This document shows, piece after piece, positions 975-29,731 of a stretch of 64,000 nucleotides of DNA; positions within the stretch are counted from its first letter, which is position 1, and each line of letters begins with the position of its first letter. The DNA comes from a virus. Lineage: Duplodnaviria; Caudoviricetes. The translations under genes and the position numbers were made by a program. The notes beneath the pieces are model-generated. The model did not search any database, was not told where the DNA came from, and saw only the letters and a list, made by a program, of their open reading frames with translations. The stretch lies in the IMG/VR virus record IMGVR_UViG_3300026549_000040, positions 64,001 to 128,000 of that record. The stretch is one strand, 5' to 3'.

Positions 975-1502
975 ATGAAAAACCTTAGAGAATGTTTTAA
1001 AGACTGGGATAGAAAAGAATTTAGAGATAATTCAAGATCATTTGAACTTGAAATGTTGTATGAGTCTGTTAAAACAACATTATCTGCTCAACAAAAAAAC
1101 GATTTAGCTAGATTTGTTAGAAAAGCTAAAACTGCCGAAGAAGTAAATACTTATATGACAGGCATGATTGCAAAAGATAATGTTAAAGAATCATTTACAG
1201 AAGATATAGATGAAGAATCATTCAATAAACTTAAAGAAATAGCATACGAGCTAGATAATTATATAGAAGACAAAGTTTGGGTAAGAGATTTTTGGTATGA
1301 TGCTCAATTTGATAATACTATTACATTTAGTATAAGTGGTGATTGGAAACATGATCATTTAAGATTTAACTACTATGCCAGTGAGTGGTTAGATAATAGA
1401 GGTATTGATTATAAAATTTCAGAACATATAACTGATGATAGTGAAGATGATTCTTACGACGCTGATCATACTATAAGAATTTATAACTTAAAGGAATTAT
1501 AA
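975..1502 (+). CDS. hypothetical acidic protein, candidate internal head protein
   Basis: MKNLRE start, internal LYES and ESFTE linkers, GGAG RBS. Confidence 0.6.
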   Translation: MKNLRECFKDWDRKEFRDNSRSFELEMLYESVKTTLSAQQKNDLARFVRKAKTAEEVNTYMTGMIAKDNVKESFTEDIDEESFNKLKEIAYELDNYIEDKVWVRDFWYDAQFDNTITFSISGDWKHDHLRFNYYASEWLDNRGIDYKISEHITDDSEDDSYDADHTIRIYNLKEL

Positions 1503-5656: not shown

Positions 5657-7681
5657 ATGATAGATAACCTTAAAGAATTAGAAAATTTAAGTAGAGAAGA
5701 AAAAGAAGAAGTTCTTAAAATATTAGACCAGATATATGACTCAGGCGCTTCAGAAGAATATAATAAATTATTATTAGAAGATTACGAAGAAATACCAGTA
5801 GATATTGAAACTTTTTTAAGAGATAAAAAATATCTCGGTAAAGGCTTAATAAATGATGAAGGAAAGTTTACAGTTTATACTTATTGGGAAGATATGCTAA
5901 AGATTATATTTCCAGATCCTTTACTTCCTGCACAGTATAATACATTAGCTCTTACTGGATCAATTGGTATTGGTAAATCTTTTGTAGCTGTTTTATGCAT
6001 GCTCTATGAATTATACAGAATGTTATGCCTAAAAGATCCTTATGTATATTATGGTCTACAACCTATAGACAAAATTACTTTTGCAGTTATGAATATAACA
6101 TTGGATGCAAGTAAAGGTGTAGCGTGGGATAAAATGCAACAACTATTACAGTCATCTGAATGGTTTTTATCAAAAGGGTCTGTAAGAGGGGATATAAATA
6201 TTGAGTGGAGTCCAAGTAAGAATATAGAACTTATTGCTGGTTCATTAAGTAGACATATAATTGGTCGTGCAGTATTTAGTGCGTTTTTTGATGAAGTTTC
6301 ATTTCAACCTAATCAAGATGTTGAGAAACAAAAGGAAAAAGCAAAAGCATTAGTTAATACTGCAAATGCTCGTATGCAGTCCAGATTTATGAAAGGTGAT
6401 AAAAATCCTACTCTATTAATTCTTGCTTCTTCAAAAAGAACAGAACAATCTTATATGGAAACTTTCATTGAGAATAAGAAGAAAAATGAAAGTAAAACAA
6501 CGTATGTTGTAGATGAACCACAGTGGGTTATAAGAGAAGATAAAAAAAGTTCTGTTACTTTTAAGGTTGCAATAGGGAATAAATTCTTAGCATCAGAAGT
6601 AGTACCACTAACTGCTACTGAGAAAGATATACAAATATATCGTGATAGGGGTTACAAAATATTAGATGTACCAATTGGGTATTATGAAAACTTTATAGAT
6701 GATATTGATATTGCATTAACCGATATTGCTGGTATATCAACAACAAGTAGCAGTAGGTATTTATCAGGTCCAAGAATAGCAGCAATAAAAAATAATACAT
6801 TAAAGAATCCATTCTCAAATGATATATTAGAGATTGGTAATAATCCAGAAGATAATACGCAGTATTACGATCATTTTGATTTAGATAGTATAGATAAAAC
6901 TTTATTACAATATCCTTTATACATACATTTAGATATGTCTATATCTGGAGATAAGACAGGTATTGCAGGTGTTTGGATAAAAGGAAAGAAGCCTCCAGTT
7001 GAAGGACAGCCTCCTTCTAAAGAACTATTTTTTCAACCAGCATTTGTAGTATCTATAAAAGCTCCAAAAGGTTATCAGATAAGTTTTGAAAAAAATAGAC
7101 AATTTATTTATTGGTTAAAGGATAATGGTTTTAATATACGAGGAGTATCATTCGACTCTTTCCAATCTGCAGATATGAAACAACAACTTGCAGGTAAAGG
7201 ATTTGAAGTTGAGACGATATCCGTTGATAAAACTAAAGACAATATTTGTCAACCTTACCAATATTTAAAAAATACTATCTATGAAGAGAGATTAACTTTA
7301 TTTGAAAATACTCTACTAACAGAAGAATTATTAGGATTAGAAAGAAATAATTCAAATGGTAAGATAGATCATACTCCAAGTGGTATAAACTCAAAGGACT
7401 CTGCTGATGCTCTTTGTGGTGCAATATGGAACGCTTCACAGCATGGAGAAGAATTTGATTTTGAATTTGGAGAAACATTAGATACCATAGTAGACGTTTC
7501 TGAACAAAATACGATAAAAGATGAAGGCAAGCAGCTTATGATAGATTTTGAAGATGAATTAAAAAGAGCAGCAAACGCTTTTGGTGAAAGCCTAAAAAGA
7601 AAAGATAATAATTATACAGATTTTGGTTTAGGGGCTTCTACAACAGATTATATGCTGTATGGTGATTGTTTAATAATATAA
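5657..7681 (+). CDS. terL: terminase large subunit
   Basis: Walker A TGSIGIGKS, Walker B AFFDE, nuclease motifs HLDMS..GDKTG and KDSADA; directly upstream of portal. Confidence 0.92.
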   Translation: MIDNLKELENLSREEKEEVLKILDQIYDSGASEEYNKLLLEDYEEIPVDIETFLRDKKYLGKGLINDEGKFTVYTYWEDMLKIIFPDPLLPAQYNTLALTGSIGIGKSFVAVLCMLYELYRMLCLKDPYVYYGLQPIDKITFAVMNITLDASKGVAWDKMQQLLQSSEWFLSKGSVRGDINIEWSPSKNIELIAGSLSRHIIGRAVFSAFFDEVSFQPNQDVEKQKEKAKALVNTANARMQSRFMKGDKNPTLLILASSKRTEQSYMETFIENKKKNESKTTYVVDEPQWVIREDKKSSVTFKVAIGNKFLASEVVPLTATEKDIQIYRDRGYKILDVPIGYYENFIDDIDIALTDIAGISTTSSSRYLSGPRIAAIKNNTLKNPFSNDILEIGNNPEDNTQYYDHFDLDSIDKTLLQYPLYIHLDMSISGDKTGIAGVWIKGKKPPVEGQPPSKELFFQPAFVVSIKAPKGYQISFEKNRQFIYWLKDNGFNIRGVSFDSFQSADMKQQLAGKGFEVETISVDKTKDNICQPYQYLKNTIYEERLTLFENTLLTEELLGLERNNSNGKIDHTPSGINSKDSADALCGAIWNASQHGEEFDFEFGETLDTIVDVSEQNTIKDEGKQLMIDFEDELKRAANAFGESLKRKDNNYTDFGLGASTTDYMLYGDCLII

Positions 7682-7712: not shown

Positions 7713-9620
7713 ATGGCAGAAGTAGATAACAACATTTTTAATAAAGAAAATGATAAGATAGGTCAAAAAATAAATCCCATGCCAGTACCAGAAACTAATA
7801 TAGGTGTGGATACAGATAATGACTTTTTTAAGGATATAGCAAATTTAGGGGATTCTTCTAGTATTGATATAACAACTATAAATAGTTTTTCACAACTATC
7901 AAATAGTAGAGAAACTTTATATCAAGTCTTAGATACCATGGCTCAAGATTCCACCGTATCTGCTATATTAGAAATATATGCAGAAGACGCTACAGAACAA
8001 AACGAACAAGGTCAAACAGTTTGGGTTGAATCTGATGATGCTAATATTGCTAAATATGTTACTTTCTTATTAAATAGTTTGAATGTAGAAAAGAATATAT
8101 ATAGATGGGTATACTCATTATGTAAGTATGGGGATTTATATTTAAAGCTATTCAGACAATCTGATTTTGATGATGATTTATTAAAAGACGAAGATAAGAG
8201 TGTGTTAAATGAAAAGTTTAATAATATAAGTGAAGTACCGTCAGAAAAACAGAATCTTGATGAGAATGTAATTGTAAAAGCATATAGAAAAGATGATAGA
8301 TTAGTTAATTTTGTTGAAATGGTTTACAACCCAGGAGAGATGTTTGAATTAACTAAATTCGGCAAGAGTTATGCTTACATAAAAACAAATACGTTACCTG
8401 TTCTTCATCAGCAAGATAATCCTATTATTTCTTCTTACTATTTATATAAAATGCGTAAGAGAGATGTAGAAGTATATAATGCAGTAAGTTATGTGCATGC
8501 AGCTTTAACTGATGATACACCGAGAATACCTGAACAAGTACAGATATTTAATGGTGAAGATTTATCTAAAGATAGTGATTCAAATACCTATACTGTAAAC
8601 AGAGGACAATCTTTATTATTTAGCTCTTATAAGATATGGCGTCAGATGATGCTTCTTGAAAATGCTTTATTATTAAATAGATTAACCAAGTCTTCTATAT
8701 TAAGAGTTATAGAAGTGGAAGTTGCAGATATGCCTAAAGAAAGAGTTCAACCTTATCTGCAAAGAGTTAAAACATTAGTAGAGCAAAAAACCTCATTAAG
8801 CGATGGGGATAAGATATCTGAATATACAAATCCAGGCTCTATGGAAAATAATATTTATGTTCCTACCAGAGGTGGTATTGGTGCTATAAATACTCAACAA
8901 ATTGGTGGTGATGTAAATGTTAAAGATATTGCTGATATAGATTATTTTAAGAATAAGTTCTATGGAAGTATGAAAATTCCAAAGCAGTATTTAGGAGATA
9001 CTGATGATGCTACAGGATTTAACGGTGGTACTTCATTATCTATAGTATCTTCCAGGTATGCTAAAACTGTAAAAAGAGTTCAAGCTACTATACGACAAAT
9101 GTTAACTGACGTAGTTAATATTCTTCTAATAGACAGAGGTTTAGACTCTTATGTAAATAAGTTTACATTACAGATGCAAGAGCCAGTTACACAAGAAGAG
9201 TTAGATAAGAGAGATAGTTTATCTTCTGAAATTCAGATAACAGATGATTTAATGAGAATGGTAGGTGATATAGAAGATCCTATCATTAAGTTAAAAATAC
9301 TAAAAGCTTTATTATCAAAAGTTATATCTAACCAAGAAGTTATAAGTCTTATACAAGAAACTATTGAAAGCCTAGAGAGTGCTAATGAAGAACAAACTCC
9401 TGATGCAGGTGATGATGAATTTGGGGATGATGACTTATTTGGTGACATAGGTGGTGGTTCTGGTGGAGCCGGAATGGATTCAGACTTTGATTTTGGAGAT
9501 GAATCAGATTTTGGTGATATTGATAATGATGTTGGTGGTGAAACTGATATGGATACTTCTTCAGGTGACAGTTTACCATCCCCAGCTGACTTAAGTGCTG
9601 GTGATTTCACAGAGTTATAA
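7713..9620 (+). CDS. portal protein (T4 gp20-like)
   Basis: KYGDLYL, KIWRQMMLLENALLLNRL, DIDYFKNKFYGSMKIPKQYL motifs; acidic Gly-rich tail; position after TerL. Confidence 0.88.
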   Translation: MAEVDNNIFNKENDKIGQKINPMPVPETNIGVDTDNDFFKDIANLGDSSSIDITTINSFSQLSNSRETLYQVLDTMAQDSTVSAILEIYAEDATEQNEQGQTVWVESDDANIAKYVTFLLNSLNVEKNIYRWVYSLCKYGDLYLKLFRQSDFDDDLLKDEDKSVLNEKFNNISEVPSEKQNLDENVIVKAYRKDDRLVNFVEMVYNPGEMFELTKFGKSYAYIKTNTLPVLHQQDNPIISSYYLYKMRKRDVEVYNAVSYVHAALTDDTPRIPEQVQIFNGEDLSKDSDSNTYTVNRGQSLLFSSYKIWRQMMLLENALLLNRLTKSSILRVIEVEVADMPKERVQPYLQRVKTLVEQKTSLSDGDKISEYTNPGSMENNIYVPTRGGIGAINTQQIGGDVNVKDIADIDYFKNKFYGSMKIPKQYLGDTDDATGFNGGTSLSIVSSRYAKTVKRVQATIRQMLTDVVNILLIDRGLDSYVNKFTLQMQEPVTQEELDKRDSLSSEIQITDDLMRMVGDIEDPIIKLKILKALLSKVISNQEVISLIQETIESLESANEEQTPDAGDDEFGDDDLFGDIGGGSGGAGMDSDFDFGDESDFGDIDNDVGGETDMDTSSGDSLPSPADLSAGDFTEL

Positions 9621-9661: not shown

Positions 9662-10033
9662 ATGATTGATTATAGATTATATATTAGAGAAAGTATAGAA
9701 TCAGATGTTTTATATCATGCTACTTTTGGTTATTACTTAGATAATATAACTACTAATGGGTTGATGCCAAATAATACACAAAATTATTCTGATTCAAAAG
9801 ATAATTGTGTATATCTAGCAAATGATTTAGATGTGGCCGCTTCTTACTGTGAAGCGGCTGAAGTAGATGATGAAATATATGATTCTGGTATCTATATAAT
9901 ATATATAGATACAAGTAGGCTAGATGATTCAAAATTAATTGAAGACGAAAATGTATTAGATGATGATAGTACATTTGAGTATCATGGGGTAATTAAACCT
10001 AATTGCTTTTTAAAAATAGAAGAGTATGACTAG
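9662..10033 (+). CDS. Tpt1/KptA-like NAD-dependent ADP-ribosyltransferase-fold protein
   Basis: LYHAT...I...GL.P...VYLA...A...IDT...F-E-Y-x-G-x-I-x-P pattern. Confidence 0.65.
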   Translation: MIDYRLYIRESIESDVLYHATFGYYLDNITTNGLMPNNTQNYSDSKDNCVYLANDLDVAASYCEAAEVDDEIYDSGIYIIYIDTSRLDDSKLIEDENVLDDDSTFEYHGVIKPNCFLKIEEYD

Positions 10034-10635: not shown

Positions 10636-10893
10636 TTGGCACAAGTTTACGTTAAGAAGATTAATAAAAATGACTATCAATCACAGGCTGAATATAGAGA
10701 TGCTTGTGCTGATAATGTAGAAGCTGCAATAAAATTATTTAGAAAAAAAGTTGCTAACGAAGGTATTATGAAAGAAGTACAAGATAGAATGTACTACGTT
10801 AGCAAGGGTGAAAAAAGACGAAAAGCCGCTAAGATAGGCAGAAGAAAGCAGCTAAAGAAAATGTATCGTGATAGACGTTTTTATAAGGACTAA
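10636..10893 (+). CDS. rpsU: phage-encoded ribosomal protein bS21
   Basis: NVEAAIKLFRKKVANEGIMKEVQDRMYYVSKGEKRRK matches the bS21 signature; basic tail; TTG start after GAGAGGA. Confidence 0.85.
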   Translation: MAQVYVKKINKNDYQSQAEYRDACADNVEAAIKLFRKKVANEGIMKEVQDRMYYVSKGEKRRKAAKIGRRKQLKKMYRDRRFYKD

Positions 10894-10968: not shown

Positions 10969-13900
10969 ATGTTAGAATCATTAAAACATGAAGATTTACA
11001 ATTTCAAGAATTAAGTCCAGAAGAAAAACAAGCTAGAGGTATATTAGCTAGATTATCAGGACCAATAGCTAGTTTTACAAAGGGCACTAGAAATGGACGT
11101 AAGTATTCAGATAAATTATGGGAAAAGGCATTTGATTCACCATTAGTTAAAGAAATGTTTTCTAATGGTGGTTTACCAGGTGAATTACAGCATCCTGCAG
11201 ATAGATCAGAAACTGATCCAACTAAAATTGCTATTATGATGCCAGAGCCTCCTAAGAAAGATTCAAACGGACACTTAGTTGCATCTGTTGATATATTAGA
11301 TACACCATGTGGACAGATTGCATATCAATTAGGAAAATATGGTTTTAAGTTTGGGATCAGTTCAAGAGGAGAAGGAGATCTTATACAAGATTTCTCAGGA
11401 GAAGAATCTGTAGATCCTGATACATATACATTAAATGCTTTTGACCTTGTATTAATTCCAGCATGTGAGGATGCAAGATTACAATTTACAGAAAGTTTAA
11501 ATTCAAAGACTTCTACCAATACAAATATTAGATCTATATTAAGTGAAGCTTTAAATAGTGCTTCTGATAAAGATAGAAAAATAATGGAAGAGGCTATTGA
11601 TGAATTAGATCTAAGTGATAACTATCAATTTGTAGAAACTTATAATGGTGAGGATATCTATTTTGATCCAGAAACTAAAAAGTATATTGTAGGTACGATT
11701 GATAATGAAACCGTATTAAATTCTATTAAAAATGCCAGAGAGTACATAGATAGATATTTAACAGAAGCTTCTAATGGGTCTAAAGAATTTGTAATAGAAT
11801 TTTTATATGATGAATATAATGATATGACAGATGAATCAGATCATAATCTATTAGGTCATATTAAAGTACGTGCTTCTTCTGAATCTGATGCTCTACAAAA
11901 AGCTAAAGAGTATTTATCTTCTACTGGTTATCATGATGCTTTGAATATAAGACATCTTAAAATAAGTAATGATAATTACTCAAATATTCCTTTAGTAGAA
12001 GAACAAGTTGGTAGAGAAGAAACAAAAGTTAATACAAAGCCAAGTGAGATTCTTCAAAATAAATCTGAAGATGATTCTGAAGACAATAAAGAAGAAGTAT
12101 CTAATAATATGAATCAAGTGGTAGCACAAGATGAAGAGGATAAAGATTTACTTGAAGAAGCATTAACTCCAGAAGAAAAGATGGATTTATGGCATGATGG
12201 TAAACGTCGTGAAAATATAAAAGCTTGTGGTGATAGAAAACTTGTTAAGTATAGACATATATGCTTACAAAATGGTTATGATAAAGAAGTAGAGATTATA
12301 GAAAAAGAGCTTGAAAAAAGAGGAATTCCAAAAGAGCTTTATGAATCTATGGATACTAGAGAAGATGATGAACCAAAGAGAGCTTCTTGGGATACTGATT
12401 TCCATAGATTAGACGTAGAGTATAATCATAATTTTAAACAATTTAAAGATATGGAAAAAGAAAGTGGTGTTATTAGAGACTTCATAGATGATTTAAAAGC
12501 CTCTGGAAAAGATTATGATATATATGAACACCATTCAGACCCAGGCTGTACTATATTCTTTAATGAATCTTTAACTAAATCTTTAACTGAGGATGAAGAT
12601 AACGAAGAGGATGATACAGATTTCTTTGCTCCATATTGGGAAGATTTAAATGGCACTGAACAAAGTGCAGCTGAAGCAGCATTAGCCGAAATTAAAAGAG
12701 GTTCATCTATAGAAGATGCAGTACATGGTGCAGTTACCATGTATAATGAAGCTAATGAAGATGACGAATATTCTGAAGAAGATTTCTTTATGGAAGAAGC
12801 CGATTATAAAAAAGTATTAGATTATGTTAAAGCTCATGAAAATGTAGATGAATCATTAACTGAGGCTAAAATGGGTATGTATTCCTATATTTATGGTGTT
12901 CATGCACACCCTAATGGAAACGATAGAATACTGGCTGGTTCCAGAGATCTAGATGAGATAACAAGATCTGGCATAAAACAGGCAAAGAAAATATTCAAAA
13001 ACCCATTTATGACAGATAAAGAGAAATATGATTATTTAGATACTATGTATATATCTAATGATGATACAGAAGAAATTGATGTTTCTCCTGAATTTGATGA
13101 TTATGTAGATGGTTTAATGTCAGAACTATCATCAAGGATAAATAAGAGTTCAAATAAATTTAATGAAGGTGCTATAACTCCTAAAAAGAAGATACCATTA
13201 ACTGCTAAAGAATTTAAATACACAATGTCTTATAATGGTGAATCATCTGATATAAATTCAGCTGTAGTTATTATTCCTAATGGCATTAAACTTGGTGATG
13301 GATCTTTTATGGATGCCGTAGTTCATTGTGAAGATACTAATGGAGAGGAAATAAATTTTAATTCTGTTAGTGAGGCACAAGATTGGATTGATACTTATGG
13401 TGATGATTGCCTTTATAGAATAGATAATGGTAATGAATTATATGCAACACCATCACAAGCATATGATATTGACAATAGTGAGGAATTAACTGAAGATAAA
13501 TACACTCGTGATGAGTTATTTGATAAATTTGGTACTGATAATTTAGATATTATCAATGCTGGAAATGAAGAAACTGTAGAACTTGCAGACGACAATGACG
13601 TGGCAATGGTAGAACAGCTTCAAAATATATTAAAACAAAATAAATCTTTAGAAGAAAAGGTAAAGACTCTTCAAGAAAAACTTTCAGTTGGCTATGCGAA
13701 GGAAATGGAATTAAAAGAAGAGATTGATACTTATAAACAAAAAGTATCTAAGTTATCTAAGAAAACTAAAGAGATAAAAGTTTTAACTGAGAAATTATCT
13801 AACGCTGAGAGGAAGATGAAAGATGCTAATTCTCAAGCAGATGGTAAAATCTCAACTCTTAATGAATCTATATCTGCTAAAGATTATGAGAATAAAGGTC

Positions 13901-14424
13901 TTAAAAAAGATATTTCTTCTTTAAAAGAATCGTTAAGCAAGAAAGATTCGTTAATAAAATCTTTAGACGAGCAATTAGGCAAGTATAAAGATAAATTAAA
14001 TTCTAAACAAGATGACATAGAACAATTAAAAGAACAATATGAAACTGGTCAGAAAGATTTAGAACAATTAAAAAATCAATACGCTAAAAAAGTAGAACAA
14101 CAAAATCAGATCATAGAAAAATATCAAAGAGTAGCAAAAAATTCTGTAAAAAGATATATAGAATCACAGGCGGTTAGACTTGGTGTAAAATCCGATGAAA
14201 TCGTAAATAGGTTACCTAAAAACTATTCTTTCAATGATATAGATACAATATGTGAAGATTTACAAGAGTATAAGTTCAATATGAGTAATTTACCGTTTAG
14301 CCAATATGGTTTAAACGAAGGATTAAAAGTTACCGCAAAAAATGTAAGTAACGGTTTGGTAGAGGCAAACCCAGATGATGAAATCACAGAATATGACTTA
14401 AAGATAGCGGAGGCATTTTTATAA
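10969..14424 (+). CDS. prohead protease (T4 gp21-like) fused to a modular middle region and a C-terminal coiled-coil scaffold
   Basis: RNGRKYS, GELQHP, GISSRG, AFDLVLIP motifs in first ~175 aa; heptad coiled coil after ~13600; upstream of MCP. Confidence 0.88.
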   Translation: MLESLKHEDLQFQELSPEEKQARGILARLSGPIASFTKGTRNGRKYSDKLWEKAFDSPLVKEMFSNGGLPGELQHPADRSETDPTKIAIMMPEPPKKDSNGHLVASVDILDTPCGQIAYQLGKYGFKFGISSRGEGDLIQDFSGEESVDPDTYTLNAFDLVLIPACEDARLQFTESLNSKTSTNTNIRSILSEALNSASDKDRKIMEEAIDELDLSDNYQFVETYNGEDIYFDPETKKYIVGTIDNETVLNSIKNAREYIDRYLTEASNGSKEFVIEFLYDEYNDMTDESDHNLLGHIKVRASSESDALQKAKEYLSSTGYHDALNIRHLKISNDNYSNIPLVEEQVGREETKVNTKPSEILQNKSEDDSEDNKEEVSNNMNQVVAQDEEDKDLLEEALTPEEKMDLWHDGKRRENIKACGDRKLVKYRHICLQNGYDKEVEIIEKELEKRGIPKELYESMDTREDDEPKRASWDTDFHRLDVEYNHNFKQFKDMEKESGVIRDFIDDLKASGKDYDIYEHHSDPGCTIFFNESLTKSLTEDEDNEEDDTDFFAPYWEDLNGTEQSAAEAALAEIKRGSSIEDAVHGAVTMYNEANEDDEYSEEDFFMEEADYKKVLDYVKAHENVDESLTEAKMGMYSYIYGVHAHPNGNDRILAGSRDLDEITRSGIKQAKKIFKNPFMTDKEKYDYLDTMYISNDDTEEIDVSPEFDDYVDGLMSELSSRINKSSNKFNEGAITPKKKIPLTAKEFKYTMSYNGESSDINSAVVIIPNGIKLGDGSFMDAVVHCEDTNGEEINFNSVSEAQDWIDTYGDDCLYRIDNGNELYATPSQAYDIDNSEELTEDKYTRDELFDKFGTDNLDIINAGNEETVELADDNDVAMVEQLQNILKQNKSLEEKVKTLQEKLSVGYAKEMELKEEIDTYKQKVSKLSKKTKEIKVLTEKLSNAERKMKDANSQADGKISTLNESISAKDYENKGLKKDISSLKESLSKKDSLIKSLDEQLGKYKDKLNSKQDDIEQLKEQYETGQKDLEQLKNQYAKKVEQQNQIIEKYQRVAKNSVKRYIESQAVRLGVKSDEIVNRLPKNYSFNDIDTICEDLQEYKFNMSNLPFSQYGLNEGLKVTAKNVSNGLVEANPDDEITEYDLKIAEAFL

Positions 14425-14475: not shown

Positions 14476-15810
14476 ATGGCTAATAGATTATTAGAAAAAT
14501 ATTCAAAGAAGATACAGTTAGCAGAAGCTGTATATAAGAAAAGACATCAAGGCGAGCCGATGGACAGCATGAGAAAGATCACTGTTGCTAAGTGTCTTGA
14601 TAATGTTAATAAGTTCCTCAATGAGGCTTTTGATTCTTCAATGGGTACTCAGAGAAGTGCAATGGGAGATTATAAGAGATTTTGTATTGCGTTAACTAAT
14701 GTTGGTCTTCCTAACTTAATCGCTTTTGATTTAGTTCACGTTTCACCGATGAGCTCAATGTATGGTAATGTAGCCTATATTGAATATGTCAAAGGAACAA
14801 CCAAGGGTGAGTCAAAAGAAGGCGATTTCACTAATGGTGTATGGTCGTTAGGTGATGTAGATGTTAACTACACTGGTCAGGCAGTTGTAGAGCCAGTTGA
14901 AAGTTTCACTTCTGAAACTACTGCAGTTGCTTTTAAGCAAGGTGCTAAAGCTGTTCGTCTGTTAGATGCTAATGGCGTTCAAGTTGATGATGCTGATGGT
15001 GAACATCCAGCTACAGTTAATGCTGATACTGGTGTTGTTACACAGACTTCTTTCAAGACAGGTAAGAGTGCTAGCGATGTTAAGAAGATTGCTTATGTCT
15101 ATGATAATGTAGTTATTCCTCAGGAAACTCTTCCAACATTAAAAGCTGAATTAAAGAATATTGGTCTTGAAGCTAGAGCTAGAAGAATCGCTGTATTCTA
15201 TAGTCAGATGGCTGCTTTCCAAGCTAAGACTGATTATGGTTTTGATTTAGCTGACGGTCTTGCTGAACAGGCTGTTGGTCAGTTATCTTATGAGATTGAT
15301 ACTGAGATTTGCAATATGTTAATCGATGCTGCTAGCCCAGTTGCTGGTATCGAAGACTTTAGTAAAACTCTTCCTGTAGGTGTTAACCTTGCAGACCACT
15401 ACGCTGCGTTTGCTGCTAAGTTAGAAGAGTACAAGATGGCATTATATGACAGAACTAAGAAGTTTGTTCCTAACTTTATGTTAGTTGCTTCTGATGTTAT
15501 GCCTGTAATTCAGTTTGTACCTGGATTCCAAGCTGCTACAGTTTCAGACATTAATGGTCCATACTTTGCTGGTACATTAGCTGGTCTTAAAGTATTCGTA
15601 ACTCCGAATATCGATCCTGGTAAGATGATATTTGGTGTTAACCAAGGTGCTATGCAGGCTGCTGCTGGTATTTATGCCCCGTATATGCCTGTTGTTCCGA
15701 CTCAACTTCTTGGATTTGCTGATGGTGGAATGAGTCAGGGCTGGTCAACGATGTATGACTGCAAGATCTTAAATGCGGATCTGTTAATTTCAGCTAACAT
15801 TGTTGCTTAA
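14476..15810 (+). CDS. major capsid protein (T4 gp23-like)
   Basis: DLVHVSPMS, EARARRI, LSYEIDTEI, GIYAPYMP motifs; biased codon usage; terminator follows. Confidence 0.92.
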   Translation: MANRLLEKYSKKIQLAEAVYKKRHQGEPMDSMRKITVAKCLDNVNKFLNEAFDSSMGTQRSAMGDYKRFCIALTNVGLPNLIAFDLVHVSPMSSMYGNVAYIEYVKGTTKGESKEGDFTNGVWSLGDVDVNYTGQAVVEPVESFTSETTAVAFKQGAKAVRLLDANGVQVDDADGEHPATVNADTGVVTQTSFKTGKSASDVKKIAYVYDNVVIPQETLPTLKAELKNIGLEARARRIAVFYSQMAAFQAKTDYGFDLADGLAEQAVGQLSYEIDTEICNMLIDAASPVAGIEDFSKTLPVGVNLADHYAAFAAKLEEYKMALYDRTKKFVPNFMLVASDVMPVIQFVPGFQAATVSDINGPYFAGTLAGLKVFVTPNIDPGKMIFGVNQGAMQAAAGIYAPYMPVVPTQLLGFADGGMSQGWSTMYDCKILNADLLISANIVA

Positions 15811-27542: not shown

Positions 27543-28673
27543 ATGTTAAGATTAAGAAATTTAACAGAAAGTTTAGAAAAAAGATATAATTTAAGTGAAT
27601 CTCGTGACTTGAATGAATCTGATAAGTTAAATGAGAAACTTAGTGACGATATGCCAGATTGGTTTGCGAAAAGATTATTAACTACAAAATATACTGATTC
27701 AAGTCGTATTTATAAGAGGGATCTAGGAGGCTCTGCACATTTTGCCGGAGGTAACAATTATACTTATCTTAAGGGTAAAGGCGCTAAGAAAAATCCTAAT
27801 TATGGTAAAGTACCAGATTATAAACAATCTGAATATGATGATCAATCACTATTTACAGGGTTACTACATAAGGGCATAAGTCTAGATAATGTGAAAATTA
27901 TAGAAGGCCCAGTACCAATTTCTGATACAGATAAAAGATTACAGCCGCCTAATATCCCAATTTTTCTTCTTAATGATGGTGTAGTATATATTCCTGGTGT
28001 AAATGATGAAGAAAAACTTGGAAGTAGAAAGACATTAGGAGCGTATAAAATAAGTGCTTTATTGCCTCAATGTAAAAAATTTGCTTACATAGATGGAAAT
28101 GACCCAGATAATTTTAAAAGAGAATATAAACGGAATACAAGATACAAAGACCGTAGTGGTTCAATATATAGAGCTGATAGTCCTGAAAAAGATAGAGATG
28201 GAAATCCAATAGGCGGTCTAAAAAATACTTATTGGAATAAATATGATAAATCAGGATATAAGATTATTCCTCCAGCAGAGAAATATAAAGATAAATTAGA
28301 TGAAATAAAAGCTAAGAAAATTTATGAAATTATGAAGAAATATGAAGATTATCTTACTGATGCACAGCAAGAAATTGCAAACTATATTTCTTCTTTATCT
28401 ATGAAAGAATATCGTTTAAATAATGATACCATAGAACGATTACAAACTATATTAAATAATGCTATAGGATATTATGTAGCTGTCGATAAACATATAAACG
28501 AAATAGTTAATGATACGTCTACTACTGATGAAGAAAAAAGAGATAGGTTAGTTGATCTAATAAACTCAAATTATCCTTATAGATGGGAAGGAGTTAAACA
28601 ATTAGATAGAGAAGTAGTTAGATTAAAAGATGCTTCAAAAGACGTATTTAACGCAACTATAGATTGGATATAA
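27543..28673 (+). CDS. hypothetical protein, candidate internal head protein
   Basis: N-terminus with stacked LTE, LSE, LNE, LNE sites. Confidence 0.65.
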   Translation: MLRLRNLTESLEKRYNLSESRDLNESDKLNEKLSDDMPDWFAKRLLTTKYTDSSRIYKRDLGGSAHFAGGNNYTYLKGKGAKKNPNYGKVPDYKQSEYDDQSLFTGLLHKGISLDNVKIIEGPVPISDTDKRLQPPNIPIFLLNDGVVYIPGVNDEEKLGSRKTLGAYKISALLPQCKKFAYIDGNDPDNFKREYKRNTRYKDRSGSIYRADSPEKDRDGNPIGGLKNTYWNKYDKSGYKIIPPAEKYKDKLDEIKAKKIYEIMKKYEDYLTDAQQEIANYISSLSMKEYRLNNDTIERLQTILNNAIGYYVAVDKHINEIVNDTSTTDEEKRDRLVDLINSNYPYRWEGVKQLDREVVRLKDASKDVFNATIDWI

Positions 28674-28687
28674 ATTAAGGATATTAT

Positions 28688-29731
28688 ATGAATATAAGAA
28701 CATTAACAGAATGTTTAGATACTAAACTAAAAACAGAAGCTTTTGAGTATGAATTTGATGATGAATTAGATTATATAATGGATGATGATTCATTATCAGA
28801 TGAAGAAAAAGAACAAGCTATAAAGGATCTGTATAATAAATACAACATAGATGAAAGTTGGAGTGATGAAGATATATCTTCAATACCATTTTCAGAATTA
28901 ATTAGTGGTAATTGGTTTGGTGCAAAAGAGAGTGATTATGGTGGAACTGTAGATAAGTCATTCTTTTCTAAATGGGGAGATACAGAAGATACCAAGTTTT
29001 CAGATGAAGATCCTGAATCATTAAATGAAGATTGGGATGATGATTCATTATCTGATATTGAAAGAGAACAAGCTATCAGTGATTTATATTCTAAATATAA
29101 TTTGCACGAAAGTAATTCTTGTGATGGGTGGATAGCTTTTTATAATGGTAAGAAATTAGAAATACCAAAATCTGATGTAGACGGCGGTATATATGAAGCA
29201 AAACAAAAAGCTATTAAAGAGTTAAAAGTTCCTAAATCTAAGATTGGTCTTTTAAGTATAAAGCCTGCTTATAATGAATCCTTAAATGAAGGAAGAAAAT
29301 CAACAAAGAAAAAATTTATAATTCGTAGAGAGCAACGTGGGTCTATATTTAATGATGACTGGCATGAAATAAGACCGCTTGAAGTAATGGCTAAAAATGC
29401 TCAAGAAGCACAGGATAAATATCGCAGGATACTAAGAAGCAGAGGTAAAACTGCTAATCAATATGAAAGACATATAGATATTAAGGAAGCTGATCCACAG
29501 AATGAATCATTAACTGAAAGTGTTGCAGGAGATATTATTTGGGAAAAAGTTAGAGATTATATTCAAGAATTAATAGAAACAGAAGTAGTAGATAATCTGG
29601 CTAGTGTTGTTTCTTCAGAAATACCTGAATATAATCCAGATTGGTGCGGTGATTCATCTTTTACAAGTCAACGCGCAGTTGAAAAGCTTGCAGAAGAATT
29701 AGCTACAGAATTAATGTTTAATCTAGAATAA
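28688..29731 (+). CDS. modular polyprotein-like protein, candidate head cargo
   Basis: Modules separated by IDES, ESLNE, LHES, ESLNE, ESLTE; internal duplication DDDSLSD.E.EQAI.DLY.KYN. Confidence 0.65.
   Translation: MNIRTLTECLDTKLKTEAFEYEFDDELDYIMDDDSLSDEEKEQAIKDLYNKYNIDESWSDEDISSIPFSELISGNWFGAKESDYGGTVDKSFFSKWGDTEDTKFSDEDPESLNEDWDDDSLSDIEREQAISDLYSKYNLHESNSCDGWIAFYNGKKLEIPKSDVDGGIYEAKQKAIKELKVPKSKIGLLSIKPAYNESLNEGRKSTKKKFIIRREQRGSIFNDDWHEIRPLEVMAKNAQEAQDKYRRILRSRGKTANQYERHIDIKEADPQNESLTESVAGDIIWEKVRDYIQELIETEVVDNLASVVSSEIPEYNPDWCGDSSFTSQRAVEKLAEELATELMFNLE

What the first reader, a model, noticed from the sequence alone, without database searches (positions are those of the whole stretch)
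10969..14424. Prohead protease carries an internal polyprotein of small cargo modules separated by its own predicted cleavage sites
Seen: a ~175-aa gp21-type protease and a C-terminal coiled-coil scaffold are separated by ~700 aa. That stretch breaks into about eight unrelated segments of ~30-110 aa, delimited by YLTEA (~11755), LVEE (~11990), LLEEA (~12150), LYES (~12340), FNESLTKSLTE (~12560), VDESLTEA (~12845), KFNEG (~13156) and ELTED (~13485). Established: T4 gp21 cleaves after (L/I)-x-E, and processed internal proteins are ejected into the host. Inference: the protease-scaffold gene serves as an expandable cassette array. Captured small domains would be co-assembled into the prohead and released as separate proteins on maturation, giving a built-in delivery route for possible anti-defence or takeover factors.
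Basis: partly seen in the sequence, partly recalled or inferred. Interest (0 to 1): 0.85.

Follow-up and report, generated by a model that had tools for sequence, protein, structure and literature searches.

The report
Capsid protease-scaffold gene carrying swappable cargo modules
In an uncultured 145-kb phage, the gene that fuses the capsid-maturation protease to the capsid scaffold has gained about 650 residues of small, unrelated, swappable protein modules, each preceded by the protease's likely cutting site, so the phage probably loads these mini-proteins into every capsid and cuts them free, although no cutting, packaging or function has been measured.

Summary
ORF 10969-14424 encodes a 1151-aa protein. 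It has a T4 gp21-type (S77) protease with conserved His75 and Ser132, then about 650 aa of modules, then a 309-aa coiled-coil scaffold, and it lies just upstream of a gp23-like capsid gene.

More than 500 metagenomic relatives are cargo-less fusions of about 515 aa in which residue ~215 joins residue ~870 directly. More than 150 others (688-1200 aa) carry differing sets and orders of modules at that junction, even where the protease is 94-98% identical.

Modules M4-M8 each have stand-alone small-protein homologues. They also occur in protease-less polyproteins joined by ESLxE linkers. One such polyprotein lies in this genome, and one of its modules sits inside the protease-scaffold gene of relatives.

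The loose Φ-x-E motif (Φ = hydrophobic residue) is not enriched in the linkers of this protein. The sharper (L/F)(T/N)E motif is. Across the family a Φ-x-E sits at a fixed offset before each module.

Cleavage, retention in the capsid, ejection and function are all untested, and no module has a recognisable function. I rate it a new variant of known kinds: T4 internal proteins, protease-scaffold fusions and polyvalent proteins. This scan has noted similar ESLxE cargo polyproteins on other phage DNA.

The parts
10969..11493 (+). S77 (T4 gp21-type) prohead serine protease domain, aa 1-175. It ends at the invariant F(T/N)E175|S.
   Evidence: Pfam PF03420 matches aa 40-172 and phrog_207 also hits. 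The alignment to T4 gp21 (5jbl) places His75 (GELQHP) and Ser132 (ISSRG) at the corresponding motifs, and FTE|S on T4 EITE|S. H75, S132 and E175 are invariant in 44 sequences.
11494..11766 (+). Conserved post-protease segment N2, aa 176-266. It has helices 184-212 and a small beta/alpha fold at 220-264, and ends in YLTE266|A.
   Evidence: It is present in the close clade. Residues up to ~215 are shared with cargo-less relatives. pLDDT is 71-83 for 220-264 with a trough at 265-271.
11767..12000 (+). Module M2, aa 267-344. A beta-beta-alpha-beta bead ending in PLVE344|E.
   Evidence: pLDDT is 73-81 for 272-333. It is present in some relatives and absent in others, and sits at other positions in some, for example P-M8-M2-S.
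12001..12156 (+). M3, aa 345-396. A disordered acidic spacer (33% D+E) ending in LLE396|E.
   Evidence: pLDDT is 25-33.
12157..12345 (+). Module M4, aa 397-459. A small helical domain (LTPEEKMD.WH.G.R.EN.KAC.D.KL) ending in LYE459|S.
   Evidence: pLDDT is 85-94. It is the most widespread module, with dozens of stand-alone and fused homologues. At least 10 of 16 stand-alone forms carry a Φ-x-E 0-4 aa before the domain.
12346..12591 (+). Module M5, aa 460-541. An alpha/beta bead ending in FFNE533|SLTKSLTE541|D.
   Evidence: pLDDT is 75-84 for 477-531 with a trough at 534-555. Stand-alone homologues are P0235, P0250, P0218 and P0184.
12592..12864 (+). Module M6, aa 542-632. A very acidic helical bead (net charge -26) ending in DESLTE632|A.
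   Evidence: pLDDT is 81-89 for 556-625. Stand-alone homologues are P0215, P0236 and P0260.
12865..13167 (+). Module M7, aa 633-733. An alpha/beta bead ending in KFNE733|G.
   Evidence: pLDDT is 91-96. Stand-alone homologues are P0179, P0233 and P0243; P0233 and P0243 begin with an M...KLxE|A leader aligned to the LTE|A linker.
13168..13494 (+). Module M8, aa 734-842. A compact alpha/beta domain followed by the disordered tail DIDNSEELTE842|D.
   Evidence: Modelled alone it has pLDDT 88.2 and pTM 0.76, with the last 10 aa below 50. Stand-alone homologues are P0145, P0146, P0148, P0162 and P0216. It also occurs in the ESLxE polyproteins P0139, P0141, P0142 and P0149. No fold match was found; best VIA Z is 3.7.
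13495..14424 (+). Scaffold, aa 843-1151. A ~190-residue coiled coil plus a conserved C-terminal region, rich in LxE sites.
   Evidence: A helix spans 878-1071. Only coiled-coil matches were found. It is conserved in all family members. Its start KYT(R/K)DEL is preceded by Φ-x-E in 85% of contexts.
14476..15810 (+). gp23-like major capsid protein, with a candidate propeptide site KFLNE51|AFDSS.
   Evidence: Pfam PF07068 hits from aa 67. The site itself is inferred, not shown.
28688..29731 (+). Second, protease-less mini-polyprotein of this phage (P0274, 347 aa). It has the leader MNIRTLTE and three ESLxE linkers.
   Evidence: Its CDGWIAFYNGKK module (window 29075-29293) is 70-81% identical to a module inside the protease-scaffold genes of at least 10 relatives.

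Best explanation
The gene is a T4-type prohead protease fused to the capsid scaffold. The junction between the two has been expanded by insertion of six independently folding small domains and one acidic spacer.

Each inserted unit is preceded by a short linker carrying a gp21-type cleavage motif: hydrophobic-x-Glu followed by A, S, G, D or E. In this phage the motif is most clearly (L/F)(T/N)E.

Proposed mechanism:
1. The scaffold end drives co-assembly of the whole chain into the prohead core, so the modules need no targeting signal of their own.
2. On maturation the protease cuts the chain at the exposed linkers. This frees the protease, the scaffold (which is degraded further) and equimolar copies of each 7-12-kDa module.
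3. The folded modules stay in the head as internal proteins and leave with the DNA at infection.

What is shown: the architecture, the independence and shuffling of the modules, the placement of the motif, and the exchange of modules with stand-alone genes and with protease-less polyproteins.

What is inferred: steps 1 to 3 (co-assembly, cutting, retention in the head and ejection) and any action on the host.
For: - Protease identity and catalytic His/Ser.
- Position between portal and capsid gene, syntenic in relatives.
- Cargo-less base form: 112 of the 119 new short hits examined (median 515 aa) join q1-215 to q~870 through about 15 aa.
- Cargo forms of 688-1200 aa have shuffled module sets and orders although the protease is 94-98% identical. 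Relatives with 84% identical capsid protein carry different modules.
- Modules M4-M8 have stand-alone homologues of module size.
- Confident predicted beads are separated by disordered linkers at the motif sites.
- Motif statistics.
- Stand-alone M4 and M7 homologues carry N-terminal leaders ending in Φ-x-E at the position of the linker site.
- Protease-less polyproteins are joined by ESLxE, or by ESYL(R/K)E in another lineage.
- A module of this phage's own polyprotein sits inside the protease-scaffold gene of relatives.
- T4 precedent (PMC9026906): gp21 cuts after L/I-x-E, a 10-aa targeting leader loads internal proteins, and proteins fused to IPIII are packaged and delivered into the host.
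Against: - There is no proteomic or biochemical evidence of cutting, packaging or ejection for this phage or any relative, and none is cultured.
- In this protein the loose Φ-x-E motif is no more frequent in linkers than in domains.
- All modules are acidic. T4 internal proteins are basic as I recall them, while acidic T4 scaffold fragments mostly leave the head (both from memory, not checked).
- No module has a recognisable function.
- The protease domain itself was modelled poorly, with pLDDT 33-58.
- A genome-wide N-terminal leader pattern is not above chance: 13 observed against 10.2 expected.
Confidence: 0.6

Rival explanations
1. The modules are expendable stuffing of the scaffold. They enlarge or tune the internal core during assembly, are cut up with the scaffold and are expelled before or during DNA packaging. 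Nothing is delivered to the host.
For: - All segments are acidic like scaffold proteins, and M3 is pure acidic disorder.
- No effector-like domain was recognised.
- High turnover could reflect weak constraint.
- From memory, most T4 gp22 fragments leave the head.
Against: - The modules are discrete and confidently folded (pLDDT 75-96).
- They are kept at 40-60% identity as separate small genes, in polyproteins without any scaffold, and in a wide range of otherwise unannotated proteins. Filler would not be expected to do this.
- Total length varies from 486 to 1200 aa in the family. Only two pairs were checked directly: relatives with 84% identical capsid protein carry 949- and 928-aa versions against 1151 aa here, which argues against a size-setting role.
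Confidence: 0.2
2. The chain is not cut between modules, or is cut only at the two ends. It acts as one multi-domain core protein whose domains serve assembly itself, for example by contacting portal, capsid protein or DNA. The hydrophobic-x-Glu motifs would then be a by-product of a Glu-rich composition and helix-capping linkers.
For: - Loose Φ-x-E is not enriched in the linkers of this protein.
- The protease's specificity is inferred only from T4 and from one candidate capsid-propeptide site.
Against: - ESLxE occurs 41 times against 1.2 expected, and (L/F)(T/N)E 10 times against 1.6, with all middle copies in linkers.
- The motif sits at a fixed offset before every module whatever the upstream neighbour, with A/S/G/D/E at P1'.
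- Another lineage uses a different but internally uniform linker, ESYL(R/K)E. That fits a protease-specific site.
- Module content is too variable for a core assembly role.
Confidence: 0.13
3. The long ORF is an assembly chimaera or a decaying gene rather than a functional protein.
For: The record is a metagenomic assembly.
Against: - The frame is uninterrupted.
- An identical protein is already on record (P0002). More than 150 homologues of 633-2015 aa were found; 128 of those fetched have both the protease and the scaffold end, some on contigs up to 159 kb.
- Relatives are syntenic.
- The catalytic residues are invariant.
Confidence: 0.02

Closest known systems
T4 prohead core: gp21 protease, gp22 scaffold and the internal proteins IPI-III and Alt with their capsid targeting sequence (PMC9026906)
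   Same: - An S77 protease with the same catalytic His and Ser motifs.
- A predicted cut after hydrophobic-x-Glu.
- Small variable proteins loaded into the head.
- Stand-alone homologues of the modules carry short N-terminal leaders ending in that motif, like the T4 leader.
   Different: - In T4 the protease, the scaffold and each internal protein are separate genes, and cargo is recruited by a 10-aa leader.
- Here the cargo is covalently inserted between protease and scaffold, so it would be loaded 1:1 with the scaffold.
- The modules are acidic, and they are unrelated in sequence to the T4 proteins.
Protease-scaffold fusions: herpesvirus UL26/UL26.5, phage P2 gpO, lambda C/Nu3 (recalled from established knowledge, not tested here). 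Also the ~560-aa fusions of Bacillus phages SP-15 and HSE3 and Listeria phage LIS04 and more than 500 metagenomic forms of ~515 aa
   Same: - An N-terminal assemblin-like protease.
- A C-terminal scaffold next to the capsid gene.
- Self-cleavage expected between the parts.
   Different: - Known fusions have only a short linker.
- Here the linker has grown to ~650 aa of exchangeable folded domains.
- No nested internal start for a separate scaffold product was seen.
Polyvalent proteins of phages and conjugative elements (Iyer et al. 2017, PMC5512222)
   Same: - Many unrelated domains in one chain.
- An embedded peptidase proposed to release them.
- Proposed packaging in the capsid and delivery with the DNA.
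- Domains also occur solo.
   Different: - Those proteins carry recognisable conflict enzymes and mostly zincin-type (MPTase) peptidases, and they are not part of the scaffold.
- Here the peptidase is the head-maturation protease itself, the carrier is the scaffold, and the domains are 60-110-aa orphans with no known function.
Inner-body and ejection proteins of giant phages phiKZ, 201phi2-1 and SPN3US, processed by gp175/gp245 (PMC9026906; PMC7411985 seen only as an abstract)
   Same: - A diverged gp21-type protease that cuts after Glu at many sites.
- A large mass of processed internal proteins that enter the host.
   Different: - Those are separate genes with propeptides.
- No cargo array inside the protease gene has been described, to my knowledge or in the papers found.

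Membership tests
MEROPS S77 / Pfam PF03420 prohead core serine protease (T4 gp21) | Profile match above the curated threshold | tested here: met
   PF03420 scores 33.7 bits against a cutoff of 27 over aa 40-172. phrog_207 E=2.2e-29.
MEROPS S77 / Pfam PF03420 prohead core serine protease (T4 gp21) | Catalytic His and Ser in the conserved GEL.HP and SRG motifs | tested here: met
   The alignment to 5jbl places His75 and Ser132 at these motifs. Both are invariant in 44 family sequences. That these are the catalytic residues of gp21 is from established knowledge.
MEROPS S77 / Pfam PF03420 prohead core serine protease (T4 gp21) | Cleaves head proteins after Glu in an L/I-x-E context | not testable with these tools
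   Only motif placement could be tested. There are no proteomic data.
MEROPS S77 / Pfam PF03420 prohead core serine protease (T4 gp21) | Encoded between the portal and major capsid genes of a T4-type head module | tested here: met
   A T4-type portal lies at 7713-9620 and a gp23-like capsid gene at 14476-15810. The order is the same in L008 and L010.
T4-type internal proteins (targeting leader plus gp21 processing) | Short N-terminal targeting leader removed at L/I-x-E | tested here: inconclusive
   The modules inside this gene have no N-terminus of their own. Many stand-alone M4 and M7 homologues do have leaders ending in Φ-x-E. A loose leader pattern is not enriched across this genome: 13 observed against 10.2 expected.
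T4-type internal proteins (targeting leader plus gp21 processing) | Present in mature heads and ejected into the host | not testable with these tools
T4-type internal proteins (targeting leader plus gp21 processing) | Sequence homology to IPI, IPII, IPIII or Alt | tested here: not met
   No PHROG or Pfam hit for any module. No tblastn hit in 50,697 phage records.
Protease-scaffold fusion proteins | Protease domain and scaffold (coiled coil plus conserved C-terminus) in one ORF next to the capsid gene | tested here: met
   The cargo-less relatives show the same two ends joined directly.
Protease-scaffold fusion proteins | Nested in-frame start giving a separate scaffold product (as in UL26.5 or Nu3) | tested here: inconclusive
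   No convincing ribosome-binding site with a start codon was seen before the scaffold part, and promoter-like sites are not above chance. A sequence scan cannot exclude it.
Polyvalent proteins (Iyer et al. 2017) | Several unrelated domains in one chain with solo versions elsewhere | tested here: met
Polyvalent proteins (Iyer et al. 2017) | Recognisable conflict or effector domains and an MPTase-type peptidase | tested here: not met
   No Pfam, PHROG or PADLOC family matched the modules. The only peptidase is S77.

The most novel reading that the evidence does not exclude
The protease-scaffold junction is a general, evolvable cargo slot. Any small protein that acquires a Φ-x-Glu linker can be dropped into it and is then loaded at scaffold stoichiometry (hundreds of copies) into every capsid, without a targeting signal. 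Modules move freely among three carriers: leader-bearing solo genes, protease-less ESLxE polyproteins, and the protease-scaffold gene. The released mini-proteins would be injected host-directed effectors, for example anti-defence factors or acidic DNA mimics. This gene family would then be a catalogue of dozens of uncharacterised injected phage proteins.
Probability: 0.35. Interest if true: 0.85.

Novelty: new variant of a known kind. Interest (0 to 1): 0.7.

Why it matters
If the modules are loaded and released as proposed, this is a signal-free way of packaging proteins into capsids: covalent piggy-backing on the scaffold, with built-in release by the maturation protease.

It would give a first functional context, 'head-internal and probably injected', to several families of orphan small proteins that are widespread in uncultured phages. 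The M4 family alone accounts for most of the 286 cluster representatives found.

It also suggests an engineering route. T4-type capsids are already used for protein delivery through the IPIII leader (PMC9026906). A junction that tolerates zero to eight inserted domains would be a natural insertion site.

The hypothesis is directly testable by expressing the protein with and without the catalytic serine.

Tried and rejected
Searches on the modules that found nothing:
- Pfam, PHROG and PADLOC scans of each module and of ten larger module-bearing proteins gave nothing beyond coiled-coil noise. The exceptions were one BspA-type LRR protein and one DUF4314 protein that carry M4.
- PDB sequence searches with the middle region and with an M4 profile gave nothing credible.
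- ESM Atlas for M4 and M8 gave no usable hit.
- Foldseek (PDB) and VIA on the whole model returned no significant match and coiled-coil matches respectively. Weak VIA rows touching M2, M4 and M7 (Z 6.1-6.6) are within the tool's stated noise.
- For the M8 model, Foldseek against PDB and BFVD gave no E<=1e-3, and the best VIA Z was 3.7.
- tblastn of the middle region against 50,697 phage records found no match.

Alignments discarded:
- Global MAFFT alignments that mixed stand-alone modules with the long protein (A1, A2, A4, and partly A3) misplaced the modules, so I did not use them for folding.

Tests that came out negative:
- The loose Φ-x-E motif is not enriched in the linkers of this protein alone.
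- The loose N-terminal leader regex is not enriched over the whole proteome.
- I found no internal start for a separate scaffold.
- DNA repeats at the linkers are only 13-35-nt imperfect microhomologies.

Context searches that failed:
- The search for related loci for the polyprotein P0142 gave only two weak loci. For the stand-alone M8 protein P0148 it gave none, and the M8 alignment was too variable to search with.
The genomic context of the stand-alone homologues and the sample origin could therefore not be checked.
Full report
**What is there.** The window is bases 64001-128000 of a 144,875-bp IMG/VR virus record rated complete. G+C is about 30% and nearly all genes are on the + strand. 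ORF 10969-14424 encodes a 1151-aa protein. It lies in a T4-type head module:
- large terminase, 5657-7681
- T4-type portal, 7713-9620
- two small ORFs
- a ribosomal-protein-S21 gene, 10636-10893
- this gene
- a gp23-like major capsid gene, 14476-15810

Pfam S77 (PF03420) matches aa 40-172 above its threshold. The alignment to T4 gp21 (5jbl) places His75 (GELQHP) and Ser132 (ISSRG) at the corresponding motifs, and FTE175|S on T4 EITE|S. These residues are invariant in 44 family members. The last 309 aa are a long coiled coil with a conserved C-terminal region, which is a scaffold.

**The fusion itself is ordinary; the insertion is not.** The nearest cultured phages (Bacillus SP-15 and HSE3, Listeria LIS04) have a ~560-aa protease-containing ORF directly upstream of the capsid gene. 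A search for shorter relatives found 569 clusters. Of the 119 new short hits examined, 112 (median 515 aa) have both ends, and residues 1-215 of the query join residue ~870 through about 15 acidic residues. So aa ~216-870 of this protein is an insertion at the protease-scaffold junction. A search for proteins of similar length found more than 150 homologues of 688-1200 aa.

**The insertion is a mosaic of independent modules.**
- BLAST against these homologues shows conserved ends (1-~267 in the close clade, ~840-1151 in all) and a patchwork middle.
- The breakpoints cluster at aa 261-275, 341-345, 451-475, 531-560, 621-635, 836-840 and 861-875.
- A presence/order matrix for 35 non-redundant members shows different module sets among proteins whose proteases are 94-98% identical. 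It also shows permuted orders such as P-M8-M4-S, P-M4-M7-M5-S, P-M5-M4-S and P-N2-M2-M4-M5-M8-M6-S.
- Two related phages with 84% identical capsid protein and 77% identical portal carry 949- and 928-aa versions with other module sets.
- The other 34 members hold about 6,200 aa of further material not found in this protein.
- The modules of this protein are unrelated to each other.

**The modules exist on their own.** A phmmer search of aa 268-842 against 1.84 billion cluster representatives gave 286 hits. After removing family members, M4, M5, M6, M7 and M8 each have stand-alone homologues of module size:
- M8: P0145 (91 aa), P0146, P0148, P0162, P0216
- M7: P0179 (106 aa), P0233, P0243
- M6: P0215, P0236, P0260
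- M5: P0235
- M4: P0197, P0220, P0232

They also occur in many other multi-domain proteins. P0139, P0141, P0142 and P0149 (729-1384 aa) have neither protease nor scaffold. They are chains of small modules, including M8, joined by (D/N/E)ESLxE linkers. P0134 uses ESYL(R/K)E throughout instead.

This phage has such a chain too. ORF 28688-29731 (347 aa) has the leader MNIRTLTE and three ESLxE linkers. One of its modules is 70-81% identical to a module that sits inside the protease-scaffold gene of at least ten relatives. Modules therefore move between three kinds of carrier.

**Structure prediction.**
- The whole protein, folded with a 44-sequence family alignment, has mean pLDDT 60.6.
- It contains confident beads at 220-264, 272-333 (M2), 400-460 (M4, 85-94), 477-531 (M5), 556-625 (M6) and 640-730 (M7, 91-96), plus the scaffold helix 878-1071.
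- The beads are separated by pLDDT<50 troughs at 265-271, 336-394, 464-475, 534-555 and 626-637.
- M8 was poor in that model because the alignment was only 4-7 sequences deep there. Folded alone with its stand-alone homologues it is a compact alpha/beta domain with pLDDT 88.2 and pTM 0.76, and its last ten residues (DIDNSEELTE) are disordered.
- M3 (345-396) is a disordered acidic spacer rather than a module.

**Is the motif more than chance?** The protein is Glu-rich, so the loose motif [LIVFMY]xE occurs 53 times. In this protein alone it is not enriched in linkers (9 of 30 middle sites, p=0.39). Sharper tests are positive:
- (L/F)(T/N)E occurs 10 times against 1.6 in shuffles. All six copies in the middle (E266, E533, E541, E632, E733, E842) lie within 3 aa of a predicted linker (p=0.0016).
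- In 35 non-redundant family middles, ESLxE occurs 41 times against 1.2 expected, and LTE 49 times against 8.2.
- Internal HSP ends fall within 3 aa of an LxE Glu in 29% of cases against 11% at random.
- I took module cores from the structure model, independently of the motif. A Φ-x-E sits at one fixed offset before the core in 41-85% of unique upstream contexts against 13% expected, whatever the upstream neighbour. The residue after the Glu is mostly A, S, G, D or E.
- The sequences are related, so these p-values are overstated, but the pattern is plain in the listings.
- The capsid protein has KFLNE|AFDSS at aa 47-51, about where T4 gp23 is trimmed. This is a candidate site only.
- Stand-alone M7 and M4 homologues often begin with a short leader ending in Φ-x-E exactly where the linker site lies in the fusion. 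This resembles the 10-aa T4 capsid-targeting leader (PMC9026906).
- A loose leader regex over the whole proteome of this phage is not above chance: 13 against 10.2.

**Mechanism proposed.**
1. The scaffold end carries the whole chain into the prohead core.
2. The protease cuts at the exposed linkers.
3. The protease, the scaffold pieces and equimolar copies of each 7-12-kDa module are released.
4. The folded modules stay inside and leave with the DNA.

All four steps are inferred from the anatomy and from T4 (gp21 specificity, and packaging and delivery of IPIII fusions; PMC9026906). Retention in the head and ejection are the weakest steps. All modules are acidic (pI 4.1-6.2), and none resembles anything of known function.

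**Rivals.**
- Expendable scaffold stuffing. This is disfavoured because the modules are conserved folded domains that are also kept as solo genes and in scaffold-less chains.
- An uncut multi-domain core protein. This is disfavoured by the fixed-offset motif and by lineage-specific uniform linkers.
- An assembly artefact. This is excluded for practical purposes by the many intact homologues, 128 of which have both the protease and the scaffold end.

**Comparison with what is known.** The parts are known: S77 proteases, protease-scaffold fusions, T4 internal proteins with targeting leaders, processed inner-body proteins of giant phages, and polyvalent proteins (PMC5512222). Four literature searches found no description of cargo domains inserted between a prohead protease and its scaffold. 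The polyvalent-protein paper mentions the prohead protease only once and describes other peptidases. I therefore rate it a new variant of known kinds.

Earlier notes of this same scan (unchecked AI notes) describe ESLxE-linked cargo polyproteins in other cattle-gut and rumen phages. They also describe protease-anchored cargo chains in an actinobacterial phage and an archaeal virus. So the scan has met this theme before on other DNA. Those notes also call this phage a cattle-gut phage, which I could not verify.

**Limits.** Only two structure predictions were available, so M2 and M4-M7 were not searched as single-domain models.

Noticed in passing
window 10636-10893: An 85-aa TTG-start ORF matching ribosomal protein S21 (Pfam PF01165, E=5.9e-11) lies just upstream of the protease-scaffold gene. 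An 85-aa TTG-start ORF is kept at the same place in the relatives L008 and L010.
   Followed up: partly
window 28688-29731: A second, protease-less mini-polyprotein (347 aa) with the leader MNIRTLTE and three ESLxE linkers. Its CDGWIAFYNGKK module is 70-81% identical to a module inside the protease-scaffold genes of at least 10 related phages.
   Followed up: yes
window 27543-28673: A 376-aa ORF whose first 32 residues hold four tandem hydrophobic-x-Glu sites (LTE, LSE, LNE, LNE). It looks like a multi-site propeptide.
   Followed up: no
window 975-1502 and 1503-2438: Two ORFs upstream of the terminase share single modules. Window 1320-1481 matches P0212 and P0190, which also carry M4. Window 1797-2042 matches the polyprotein P0149, which carries M8.
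   Followed up: no
window 9662-10033: A 123-aa ORF between the portal gene and the 154-aa ORF has no counterpart at that position in the syntenic relatives L008 and L010.
   Followed up: no
P0134 (541 aa, metagenomic protein): A polyprotein carrying an M7 homologue uses ESYL(R/K)E at every junction instead of ESLxE. This suggests that the linker co-varies with the protease of each phage lineage.
   Followed up: no
P0212 (1351 aa, metagenomic protein): The M4 domain also occurs inside a BspA-type leucine-rich-repeat protein (Pfam LRR_5, E=5.9e-55). M4 is therefore not confined to head-protein carriers.
   Followed up: no
window 12563-12597 / 12836-12870 and 12855-12870 / 13485-13500: Short imperfect DNA repeats (16-35 nt, 74-88% identity) coincide with the SLTE linker codons. 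These microhomologies could help module exchange.
   Followed up: no
P0123 (615 aa, metagenomic protein): This protein carries modules (including M4 and M7) plus the scaffold but has no protease domain, and it starts with its own leader-like N-terminus. It may be a split version of the gene, or a truncation at a contig end.
   Followed up: no
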